Program-made: the position numbers and the translations under genes
In this document: positions 2,372-2,614 of the stretch, one piece after another
Layout of the letters: each line of letters begins with the position of its first letter
Numbering within the stretch: the first letter of the stretch is position 1
The notes under the pieces: model-generated
Seen by the model: only the letters and a program-made list of their open reading frames with translations
Databases searched by the model: none
What the model was told of the DNA's origin: nothing
Virus record (IMG/VR): IMGVR_UViG_2531839530_000005
Span: 1-40,441 of that record
Length of the DNA stretch: 40,441 bases
Source of the DNA: a virus
Taxonomy: Duplodnaviria > Heunggongvirae > Uroviricota > Caudoviricetes
Reading direction: 5' to 3' (one strand)

Positions 2372-2392
2372 TTTAGCTATATGGAGTTAAAA

Positions 2393-2614
2393 ATGAATTA
2401 CATATATTCCGCGACTACAAACTCTTTCTATCCGCTGGAGATGAAAGAGGATTACACTCAAGCTGACTCATGGCCAGATGATGCTGTTGAAGTGCAACTG
2501 GCACATGCCAACGGCGGATCTGTGCGTGGGATTTACAACCATGCTCAGTATCTTGATAAACGCAGAGAAATGATGCAGTGGTGGGCGGATTGGCTTGATG
2601 AAAAGGGGGAGTGA
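2393..2614 (+). pseudogene. Chimeric remnant: tail-fibre-assembly (Tfa) N-terminus fused in frame to the 3' end of a P4-type tyrosine integrase
   Basis: N-term MNYIYSATTNSFYPLE is Tfa-like; C-term QLAHANGGSVRGIYNHAQYLDKRREMMQWWADWLDEKGE matches the recalled conserved C-terminus of P4-family integrases including the catalytic Tyr region. Confidence 0.4.

What the first reader, a model, noticed from the sequence alone, without database searches (positions are those of the whole stretch)
2381..2614. Chimeric ORF joining a Tfa N-terminus to a P4-type integrase C-terminus
The first ~35 residues look like a tail-fibre assembly protein start (MNYIYSATTNSFYPLE). The remainder (QLAHANGGSVRGIYNHAQYLDKRREMMQWWADWLDEKGE) matches the recalled conserved C-terminal end of P4-family tyrosine integrases. 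Together with the adjacent acyltransferase this looks like a captured fragment of an integrase-linked island, joined by illegitimate recombination inside the tail-fibre region.
Basis: partly seen in the sequence, partly recalled or inferred. Interest (0 to 1): 0.55.

Follow-up and report, generated by a model that had tools for sequence, protein, structure and literature searches.

The report
Tail-fibre/integrase recombination scar in prophage
The small ORF is a real in-frame fusion of the start of a phage tail-fibre assembly gene to the last 120 bases of an IntS (P4/HK620-type) integrase gene, but it is an ordinary dead scar left when one E. coli prophage swapped its tail-fibre end for that of a related prophage.

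Summary
Counting from the ATG at 2381, ORF residues 5-38 are 100% identical to the N-terminus of an intact 146-aa Tfa. Residues 31-77 are 89% identical to the last 47 residues of IntS.

The window is E. coli chromosome carrying a ~39-kb prophage inserted in the ryeA/sdsR locus, between pphA and yebY. Relatives at this site end with a Pin-invertible tail-fibre segment: pin, stf', tfa', tfa, stf. Here, about 2.6 kb unique to a related argW-integrated prophage has replaced tfa' (3' part), tfa and the variable part of stf. That DNA carries the intS 3' end, an S24 remnant, an AT3 acyltransferase, a small ORF and a glycine-rich fibre tip.

The left joint lies in a 24-bp patch that is 20/24 identical between the two genes, with the crossover in TTGAAGT (2487-2493). 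This patch is the single best microhomology available between the two parental segments. The right joint is ordinary homologous recombination in shared baseplate genes.

- Only one Pin crossover site is left, so the inversion switch is very probably dead.
- The ORF has no promoter-like site.
- PGAP already annotates it as two partial pseudogenes.
- It occurs in one lineage (1 of 5426 complete genomes; at least 33 assembly blocks), always at the same locus.

The finding is ordinary and of low interest.

The parts
1068..1098 (.). attL-like imperfect repeat of the prophage (AAAAAGAGACCGAACACGATTCCTGTTTTCG). Its partner is at about 39830-39862, inside the ryeA/sdsR locus.
   Evidence: Read by eye from the sequences printed. 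Rfam places SraC_RyeA and SdsR_RyeB at 39835-39979. The exact 12-mer repeat search found nothing, so the repeat is imperfect.
1398..1952 (-). pinE, a Din-family serine DNA invertase, apparently intact (184 aa).
   Evidence: Pfam Resolvase 1.1e-51 plus HTH_7. PGAP names it pinE in the near-identical strain 300709.
2007..2032 (.). Pin-proximal crossover (pix) site, TTTTCATAAACG-TT-GGTTTGGGAGAA. It is the only pix-like site found in the 40-kb window.
   Evidence: It aligns with the inverted-repeat arms found in relatives L004 and L003. A pattern search of the whole window finds a single site at 2014-2031.
1979..2371 (+). stf', a silent alternative tail-fibre C-terminal cassette (gp53-like C-terminal domain) of the former invertible segment.
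   Evidence: Pfam Gp53-like_C 3.7e-15. It is 99.8% identical to the e14-type pin-stf'-tfa' region.
2381..2614 (+). The chimeric ORF tfa'::intS' (probable start at 2393).
2393..2493 (+). The tfa' 5' fragment: 34 codons of a 146-codon tail fibre assembly gene.
   Evidence: 34/34 aa identity. PGAP calls it a pseudogene 'missing C-terminus'.
2470..2493 (+). Microhomology patch, ATGGCCAGATGATGCTGTTGAAGT in tfa versus ATGGCCTGCTGACGCTATTGAAGT in intS (20/24 identical). The crossover lies within TTGAAGT (2487-2493).
   Evidence: Alignment of the window with both intact parents. It is the top-ranked 24-mer match between the parental segments.
2494..2614 (+). The intS 3' fragment: the last ~40 codons plus the stop of a P4/HK620-type integrase.
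   Evidence: NCBIfam PRK09692 matches profile positions 350-393 of 413 (2.4e-11). PGAP calls it a pseudogene 'missing N-terminus'.
2688..2885 (-). S24 peptidase / LexA-family remnant. It is already a pseudogene in the donor-type prophages.
   Evidence: PGAP annotation in L001, L002, L005 and L006. It has no Pfam hit of its own.
3075..4094 (+). AT3-family acyltransferase (339 aa) with 26-34% GC. It has its own promoter-like site (3004-3032) and a terminator-like hairpin (4093-4124). It is probably an O-antigen/LPS-modifying moron.
   Evidence: Pfam Acyl_transf_3 2.2e-30. GC profile. Promoter and terminator scan. It is 35% identical to the O-acetyltransferase of phage TL-2011b.
4106..4285 (-). 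Small 59-aa ORF directly downstream of the fibre gene. Its function is unknown; a fibre accessory or chaperone role is only a guess.
   Evidence: It is called in all relatives. It has only a sub-threshold DUF5874 hit.
4285..5433 (-). Tail-fibre gene. Its N-terminal (baseplate-proximal) part is shared with relatives, and its glycine-rich C-terminal tip came from the argW-type phage.
   Evidence: Pfam Gly_rich_2. blastn: window up to 5075 matches L002, and from 5093 matches L004. The full gene is 98.7-99.3% identical in L005 and L006.
5083..5108 (.). Hybrid half pix site, GTCTGTCATTCC-CA-GGTTTTCGAGAG, at the constant/variable boundary of the fibre gene. It is an older joint, already present in the donor-type phages.
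   Evidence: Alignment. The same sequence is in L005 and L006.
5540..7510 (.). Interval containing the right-hand, homologous crossover, within the shared DUF2612 and baseplate-J genes.
   Evidence: Informative sites follow the argW-type L005 up to ~5538, are mixed from 5550 to 7475, and follow the same-site relative L004 from ~7513.
34410..37845 (+). recE and recT of the resident prophage. They are candidate enzymes for short or diverged-homology recombination.
   Evidence: ORFs. PGAP recE/recT in the near-identical strain 300709.
38631..39707 (+). The prophage's own intact lambda-type integrase (358 aa), unrelated to the intS fragment.
   Evidence: Pfam Arm-DNA-bind_1 + Phage_int_M + Phage_integrase. 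It sits with an excisionase next to yebY.

Best explanation
The ORF is a non-functional recombination scar. A prophage integrated in the ryeA/sdsR locus (between pphA and yebY) originally ended, like its relatives, with a Pin-invertible tail-fibre segment: pin, stf', tfa', tfa, stf. It recombined with a related prophage or phage of the argW/IntS-integrating type. In that type the integrase gene lies directly beside an AT3 acyltransferase moron and the tail-fibre gene. One crossover was ordinary homologous recombination in the shared DUF2612/baseplate-J region (about 5540-7510). The other was a short-homology joint between tfa' and the 3' end of intS, inside a 24-bp patch that is 20/24 identical (crossover in TTGAAGT, 2487-2493). 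In both genes this patch happens to encode W-P-x-D-A-[V/I]-E-V, so the fusion is in frame. The result is threefold: the fibre tip was exchanged for a glycine-rich one, the acyltransferase moron was imported, and the distal pix site together with one tfa/stf cassette was lost, which freezes the Pin switch. Shown here: the two parentages, the joint position, the microhomology, the single remaining pix site and the lineage restriction. Inferred: that the ORF is not expressed or functional, and that a phage single-strand-annealing recombinase (RecT of this prophage, or the donor's equivalent) made the joint. The data do not say whether this happened in one step (double crossover) or two (see rivals).
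For: - **Parentage.** Window 1-2091 matches the same-site relative L004 at 97%. Window 1397-2493 matches a pin-stf'-tfa' region (L003) at 95.5%. Window 2470-5075 matches an argW prophage (L002) at 97.2%. Window 5093-13902 matches L004 at 97.4%.
- **Donor collinearity.** Window 2470-7722 is 98.0% identical and collinear with the argW prophage of strain EH08-18-36, which reads argW-intS-S24'-AT3-hyp-fibre-DUF2612-baseplate J.
- **Canonical architecture.** Relatives carry pin, (stf'), tfa', tfa, stf, DUF2612, baseplate J (stf' is not annotated in L004).
- **Joint.** The alignment with both intact parents places the crossover in TTGAAGT.
- **Microhomology.** The 20/24 patch is the single best ungapped 24-mer among about 7 million position pairs between the parental segments. 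Only 6 of 200 shuffles reach 20/24.
- **Right crossover.** The SNP pattern brackets it between about 5540 and 7510.
- **pix sites.** The pix inverted-repeat pair is present in relatives. Only one pix-like site is found in the window.
- **Expression signals.** No promoter-like site lies upstream of the ORF on the + strand.
- **Annotation.** PGAP annotates two partial pseudogenes.
- **Distribution.** The joint is in 1 of 5426 complete genomes. It occurs in at least 33 assembly blocks, always beside pphA and in the same orientation, with later decay (broken AT3 gene, 8.3-kb tail deletion).
- **Native flanks.** Both chromosomal flanks are native, so this is a patch replacement and not a chromosomal rearrangement.
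- **Mechanistic precedent (PMC3945230, read).** RecT(Rac) and other Rad52-like phage recombinases recombine short and diverged sequences between phages and prophages.
Against: - No exact parents are available. L003/L017, L004 and L005 are only 95-98% representatives, so the right-hand crossover is bracketed loosely.
- The best intS match to the fragment is only ~96%.
- Non-expression is inferred only from a consensus promoter scan and from the silent orientation of the cassette. No transcript or protein data exist.
- A 20/24 patch arises in 3% of shuffles, so homology guidance is likely but not proven.
- The enzyme responsible cannot be identified from sequence.
Confidence: 0.9

Rival explanations
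1. Same end product by a two-step path. The whole circular donor genome first integrated into the resident prophage through a single homologous crossover in the shared baseplate genes, giving a tandem double prophage. A later deletion between tfa' and the 3' end of intS, at the microhomology, removed the resident tfa/stf and almost all of the donor genome. This differs from the best explanation only in the route taken.
For: The predicted gene order after integration plus deletion is exactly the one observed (derived from the gene orders). Deletions clearly do happen in this prophage: an 8.3-kb tail deletion is present in strain 300709 and other assemblies.
Against: No intermediate (tandem double prophage) was seen among the assemblies inspected. 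The route cannot be told apart from a one-step double crossover using the final sequence.
Confidence: 0.35
2. The fusion ORF encodes a functional small protein, for example a Tfa N-domain with an integrase C-terminal tail that acts on fibre assembly or interferes with IntS-type integrases.
For: The fusion is in frame. It keeps the tfa start codon and the GGAG ribosome-binding site. It is conserved in at least 33 assembly blocks.
Against: - It keeps only 34 of 146 Tfa residues and 47 of 385 IntS residues.
- It is below the Pfam cut-offs for both families.
- The integrase part lacks the arm-binding and core-binding domains and all of the catalytic domain except its last ~27 positions.
- It lies in the silent orientation of a now-frozen invertible segment, without a promoter-like site.
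- The in-frame state is explained by the microhomology itself.
- Conservation is within one young clonal lineage, and the only variation seen is non-synonymous (G/V at the penultimate residue).
Confidence: 0.03
3. The left joint was made by a site-specific recombinase: IntS integrating at a secondary attachment site inside tfa', or Pin acting on a quasi-site.
For: Both enzyme types are encoded nearby or in the donor. An older joint in the fibre gene does coincide with the core of a pix site (5083-5108), so Din-invertase quasi-site events are conceivable in this family.
Against: The joint lies inside the intS coding sequence, ~1 kb from where attP/attL lies in the donor (tRNA-Arg 8358-8432 versus the joint at 9607-9630 of L005). 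An Int-mediated event would leave int intact. No pix-like sequence occurs at 2470-2493.
Confidence: 0.03
4. The joint is an assembly artefact (a chimeric contig).
For: The junction lies in repeated prophage DNA, where short-read assemblies often break.
Against: The same joint is present in a complete chromosome (CP025903), in several independent NCBI assemblies and Logan assemblies of different sequencing runs, and in an IMG/VR contig.
Confidence: 0.01

Closest known systems
Din-family invertible tail-fibre segments (P segment of e14 with pinE, Mu G segment/Gin, P1 C segment/Cin)
   Same: The window has pinE and the pin-proximal crossover site. It has a silent stf' cassette followed by tfa'. 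The constant fibre N-terminus ends at a pix half-site. Relatives L003, L004 and L017 have the full arrangement.
   Different: Only one crossover site survives. tfa' is truncated after 34 codons, and the expressed tfa and stf variable part are gone. The switch is therefore very probably inoperative, and the fibre tip is a fixed glycine-rich domain from another phage.
IntS-type (P4-like) integrases of argW-integrating prophages and phages (KplE1/CPS-53 IntS, HK620, IME10)
   Same: The last 47 residues are 89-96% identical. As in serotype-converting phages, in the donor-type prophages the integrase gene sits next to a surface-polysaccharide modification gene.
   Different: Only ~12% of the gene is present. 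There is no arm-binding or core-binding domain, and the catalytic domain is incomplete. The fragment is not next to argW or any att site, and the prophage uses a different, lambda-type integrase.
Phage mosaic joints made by relaxed or short-homology recombination (De Paepe et al. 2014, PLoS Genet, PMC3945230)
   Same: This is an exchange between a prophage and a related phage. One arm lies in extended homology and the other in a short diverged patch. A RecE/RecT pair is encoded by the resident prophage.
   Different: The short arm here is only 24 bp at 83% identity, with 7 bp exact at the crossover. That is at the extreme short end of such joints. Involvement of the recombinase is inferred, not shown.
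Phage-borne AT3 O-antigen acetyltransferase morons (for example Oac of Sf6; O-acetyltransferase of TL-2011b)
   Same: It is an AT3 domain membrane protein of ~340 aa with low GC, its own promoter-like and terminator-like signals, and a position between the integrase and the tail fibre or tailspike.
   Different: It is only 35% identical to the nearest phage-database protein, and its substrate is unknown. In the window it is no longer at the prophage end but internal, next to the pin remnant.

Membership tests
Tail fibre assembly protein (Pfam Caudo_TAP, PF02413) | A full-length match to the family profile at or above the gathering score. | tested here: not met
   15.9 bits against a cut-off of 22.1, covering only profile positions 2-34 of 131. 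The intact parent scores 129.9 bits over positions 2-130.
Tail fibre assembly protein (Pfam Caudo_TAP, PF02413) | Descent from a tfa gene, shown by sequence identity of the N-terminal part and its position after an stf cassette. | tested here: met
   34/34 aa identical to WP_001106829-type Tfa. The DNA is 99.8% identical and in the same position after stf'.
P4/IntS-type tyrosine integrase | An N-terminal Arm-DNA-bind_3 domain and a central Phage_int_M domain. | tested here: not met
   Both are absent from the ORF and present in intact IntS.
P4/IntS-type tyrosine integrase | A complete catalytic domain (the R-K-H-R-H-Y set). | tested here: not met
   Only profile positions 144-170 of 172 are matched, at 12.2 bits against a cut-off of 27.1. 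By family knowledge, the fragment can hold at most the last His and the Tyr.
P4/IntS-type tyrosine integrase | Descent from an intS gene, shown by identity of the C-terminal end. | tested here: met
   42/47 identical to IntS residues 339-385. NCBIfam PRK09692 matches positions 350-393 of 413, E = 2.4e-11. 93.6% identical to HK620 int.
Din-invertase (Pin) invertible tail-fibre switch | A serine invertase gene adjacent to the segment. | tested here: met
   pinE at 1398-1952, Resolvase + HTH_7.
Din-invertase (Pin) invertible tail-fibre switch | Two crossover sites in inverted orientation flanking the segment. | tested here: not met
   One site only, at 2014-2031. The inverted-repeat pair found in L003 and L004 is absent from the window. 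The distal position holds a hybrid half-site with centre CA instead of AA.
Din-invertase (Pin) invertible tail-fibre switch | Two alternative, complete stf-C/tfa cassettes. | tested here: not met
   One tfa is truncated and the other stf-C/tfa pair is replaced.
Short-homology (relaxed) recombination joint between phage genomes | Each side of the joint is collinear with a different parental genome. | tested here: met
Short-homology (relaxed) recombination joint between phage genomes | Sequence similarity between the parents at the crossover point, beyond chance. | tested here: met
   The 20/24 patch is the unique top hit between the parental segments. It is reached in 6 of 200 shuffles.
Short-homology (relaxed) recombination joint between phage genomes | Dependence on a phage recombinase (RecT/Redβ/Erf). 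| not testable with these tools
   recE/recT are present in the prophage. Their activity on short or diverged homology is taken from PMC3945230.
AT3 O-antigen acyltransferase moron | An Acyl_transf_3 domain above threshold. | tested here: met
   106.3 bits against a cut-off of 31.
AT3 O-antigen acyltransferase moron | Acetylation of O-antigen/LPS in the lysogen. | not testable with these tools
   Nearest annotated phage homologue (35% identity) is labelled O-acetyltransferase; position beside int and the tail fibre in donor-type prophages.

The most novel reading that the evidence does not exclude
The short peptide-coding motif shared by tfa genes and P4/IntS-type int genes (W-P-x-D-A-[V/I]-E-V, 20/24 nt identical) might act as a recurrent recombination hotspot. 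It would let phages with invertible fibre segments capture int-proximal cargo (morons plus fibre tips) from argW-type phages. Alternatively, the in-frame 73-aa product might be expressed and interfere with fibre assembly or with IntS-type recombination.
Probability: 0.04. Interest if true: 0.4.

Novelty: already known. Interest (0 to 1): 0.15.

Why it matters
It matters little beyond being a clean worked example. It shows at base-pair resolution how a prophage changes its receptor-binding tip and picks up a surface-modifying gene in one exchange. It shows that the odd joint used the best microhomology available, and that the exchange cost the phage its Pin-controlled host-range switch. For annotation, the ORF should be treated as two pseudogene fragments and not as an 'integrase family domain protein'. 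The neighbouring stf' ORF is a stranded silent cassette.

Tried and rejected
1. **Right-hand boundary at the pix core.** The homology break at 5075-5093 falls exactly at the core of the distal pix site. I first took this for the second crossover of the same event, possibly made by Pin. I rejected that reading because the donor-type argW prophages L005 and L006 already carry the identical hybrid site and are collinear with the window up to 7722/8217. It is an older joint.
2. **Chromosomal inversion or translocation between two prophages.** Rejected because both flanks are native: yebW-pphA on the left and ryeA/sdsR-yebY on the right.
3. **Species-representative genome scan.** An exact 41-mer across the joint found nothing in the species-representative genome collection. 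The joint is strain-level only.
4. **Exact look-up of the 77-aa version.** It is not in the collection. The 73-aa version is.
5. **att repeat search.** An exact 12-mer repeat search for attL/attR found nothing. The att repeat is imperfect and was read by eye.
6. **Family scans of the fused ORF.** Pfam and NCBIfam give only sub-threshold or partial hits, so parentage had to be shown by pairwise comparison with intact parents.
7. **Not run.** Structure prediction and the large protein-database searches were skipped because the parentage is unambiguous at more than 89% identity.

Full report
**Observation**

The window has an ORF at 2381-2614 on the + strand (77 aa). The ATG at 2393, preceded by GGAG, is the likelier start. 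It gives a 73-aa product that is deposited as EMZ82929.1, 'integrase family domain protein', from E. coli 2722950. The window is that contig or a near-identical one.

The ORF compares with intact proteins as follows, counting residues from the ATG at 2381:
- Residues 5-38 are 34/34 identical to the N-terminus of a 146-aa tail fibre assembly protein. That protein is a full Caudo_TAP member (129.9 bits).
- Residues 31-77 are 42/47 identical to residues 339-385, the very end, of a 385-aa IntS.
- The same residues are 93.6% identical to the HK620 integrase and ~96% to phage IME10 'prointegrase IntS'.
- IntS has the P4-type architecture Arm-DNA-bind_3 + Phage_int_M + Phage_integrase.

On its own the fused ORF stays below the Pfam thresholds for both families, as two short fragments would.

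**Genomic setting**

The left end of the window is yebW (1-276) and pphA (277-936, - strand). The right end carries the SraC/RyeA-SdsR small-RNA locus (39835-39979) and yebY. This follows.

Between them lies a ~39-kb prophage.
- Imperfect att repeats sit at about 1068-1098 and 39830-39862 (read by eye).
- It has its own lambda-type integrase (38631-39707) and excisionase.
- It has a Rac-like early region with recE and recT (34410-37845).
- Its lysis, head and tail genes are on the - strand.

Related prophages at the same site are common in E. coli. The relative inspected in detail at this site (L004) ends on the pphA side with pinE, tfa', tfa, stf, DUF2612, baseplate J; the silent stf' cassette lies in the unannotated gap after pinE. 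Family members at other sites, L003 (e14 at icd) and L017, have the same end with stf' annotated. This is a Pin-invertible tail-fibre segment, flanked by a 20-25-nt inverted repeat, the pix crossover sites.

**What happened here**

blastn of the window against representative relatives gives a clean mosaic:

| Window | Match | Identity |
|---|---|---|
| 1-2091 | same-site relative L004 | 97% |
| 1397-2493 | pin-stf'-tfa' of the L003 type | 95.5% (99.8% for 1950-2493) |
| 2470-7722 | argW-integrated prophage of strain EH08-18-36 (L005) | 98.0%, collinear |
| 5093-13902 | L004 again | 97.4% |

L005 reads tRNA-Arg, intS, S24 remnant, AT3 acyltransferase, 59-aa ORF, fibre, DUF2612, baseplate J.

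Informative sites follow L005 up to ~5538. They are mixed between 5550 and 7475. They follow L004 from ~7513.

So about 2.6 kb that exists only in the argW-type phage replaced the 3' part of tfa', the expressed tfa and the variable part of stf. The imported piece is the intS 3' end, S24', the acyltransferase, the small ORF and the glycine-rich fibre tip. The right-hand crossover was ordinary homologous recombination in the shared DUF2612/baseplate-J genes. Both chromosomal flanks are native, so this is a patch replacement and not a chromosomal rearrangement.

**The left joint**

I aligned the window with an intact tfa and an intact intS. The two unrelated genes share a 24-bp patch:
- tfa: ATGGCCAGATGATGCTGTTGAAGT
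- intS: ATGGCCTGCTGACGCTATTGAAGT

The patch is 20/24 identical and lies at window 2470-2493. The window carries the tfa version up to G2486 and the intS version from G2494. The exchange therefore happened inside TTGAAGT (2487-2493).

The patch encodes WPDDAVEV in Tfa and WPADAIEV in IntS. That is why the fusion is in frame. The reading frame is a by-product of the microhomology and not evidence of selection.

I compared the recipient-type segment (stf' through the variable part of stf, 1.9 kb of L017) with the donor-type left arm (argW through the fibre, 3.8 kb of L005). This patch is the single best ungapped 24-mer match. Only 6 of 200 shuffles reach 20/24. The joint therefore looks homology-guided and not random.

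This fits the experimentally shown ability of RecT(Rac), Redβ and Erf to recombine short and diverged sequences between phages and prophages (PMC3945230, read). The resident prophage encodes RecE/RecT. Which enzyme acted is inference.

The final sequence cannot distinguish two routes:
- a one-step double crossover;
- integration of the whole donor genome by one homologous crossover, followed by a microhomology deletion.

**Consequences**

- **Pin switch.** The distal pix site is gone. A search of the whole window finds one pix-like site only (2014-2031). The inverted-repeat pair seen in relatives is absent. pinE looks intact but is very probably an orphan. All assemblies inspected show the same orientation. 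stf' (1979-2371) and the chimeric ORF are thus stranded in the silent orientation, and no promoter-like site lies upstream of them.
- **Integrase fragment.** It covers only the last ~27 positions of the catalytic-domain profile. It lacks both DNA-binding domains.
- **Tfa fragment.** It covers 34 of 146 residues.
- **Likely functional imports.** These are the new fibre tip and the AT3 acyltransferase. The acyltransferase has 26-34% GC, its own promoter-like and terminator-like signals, and 35% identity to a phage O-acetyltransferase. Its activity was not tested.

**Distribution and status**

- The joint is present in 1 of 5426 complete E. coli genomes (strain 300709). PGAP already annotates it there as two partial pseudogenes, 'tail fiber assembly protein, missing C-terminus' and 'integrase, missing N-terminus'.
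- A one-residue variant of the 73-aa product is indexed in 33 assembly blocks. All eight loci shown from the 24 contigs read carry it in the same orientation, and beside pphA wherever the contig reaches that far.
- One IMG/VR contig also carries the joint.
- Several lineage members show later decay: an interrupted acyltransferase gene and an 8.3-kb deletion of tail genes.
- Strain 300709 has no second intS copy detectable by megablast (one matching place). The donor is no longer resident, or never was.

This is one event inherited in one lineage. It is not an artefact and it is not recurrent.

**Verdict**

The feature is an ordinary prophage mosaic joint, a pseudogene scar of a known kind that is already annotated. 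The only mildly notable points are three:
- the base-pair-level demonstration that the joint used the best available microhomology;
- the coincidental in-frame fusion;
- the collateral loss of a Pin host-range switch.

Noticed in passing
window 5083-5108 (inside the tail-fibre gene 4285-5433, - strand): The boundary between the conserved N-terminal part and the glycine-rich tip of the fibre falls exactly at the core of a pix crossover site. The constant-side half-site GGTTTTCGAGAG is kept. The other half (GTCTGTCATTCC) and the central dinucleotide (CA instead of AA) are foreign. The same hybrid is present in argW-type prophages L005 and L006, so it is an older joint. It could be a Din-invertase quasi-site event or simply the edge of homology.
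   Followed up: partly
window 1068-1098 and 39830-39979: The prophage is inserted in the bidirectional small-RNA locus ryeA/sdsR. Full SraC_RyeA and SdsR_RyeB matches sit at the right end. An imperfect copy of their terminal ~30 nt sits next to pphA at the left end.
   Followed up: partly
window 5585-13895, compared with L001 (strain 300709) and L010, L011, L013: Strain 300709 and several other carriers of the joint lack 8.3 kb that the window has, from DUF2612/baseplate through to the tail genes. The window's copy is the more complete version of a prophage that is decaying within the lineage.
   Followed up: partly
L009, L011, L013, L014, L015 (equivalent to window 3075-4094): In several lineage members the AT3 acyltransferase gene is split, shortened, or lies at a contig end (products of 216-263 aa instead of 339). 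This suggests IS insertion or frameshifts. The moron may not be under strong selection.
   Followed up: no
window 1979-2371: PGAP and other gene callers annotate the stranded stf' cassette as an ordinary CDS ('gp53-like domain-containing protein'). Its apparent ATG lies just upstream of the pix site at 2007-2032. In intact systems this cassette is expressed only after inversion fuses it to the constant fibre N-terminus.
   Followed up: partly
L006 (strain E41) 9765 onward, equal to window 2628 onward: Strain E41 carries the same S24'-AT3-fibre module, but its homology to the window starts 14 bp after the intS stop codon. Upstream are different genes and a P4-like satellite (primase, Icd-like protein, another integrase). 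The module therefore has a second, independent left boundary right at the end of intS.
   Followed up: no
phage records OL657227.1 (phage 434) 24729-24803, ON470605.1 7943-8023, MK972689.1 9572-9646: Short pieces that match only the last ~25 residues of the IntS-type integrase (88-96% identity) occur in other phage genomes, either unannotated or labelled 'hypothetical protein'. 3' integrase vestiges may be a common kind of scar.
   Followed up: no
window 24394-24596, 26769-26939, 33346-33397, 38095-38273: Rfam finds several prophage regulatory RNAs above gathering score: C4 antisense RNA with its a1/b1 targets and isrK, sok (next to hokD), DicF, and RalA (next to ralR).
   Followed up: no
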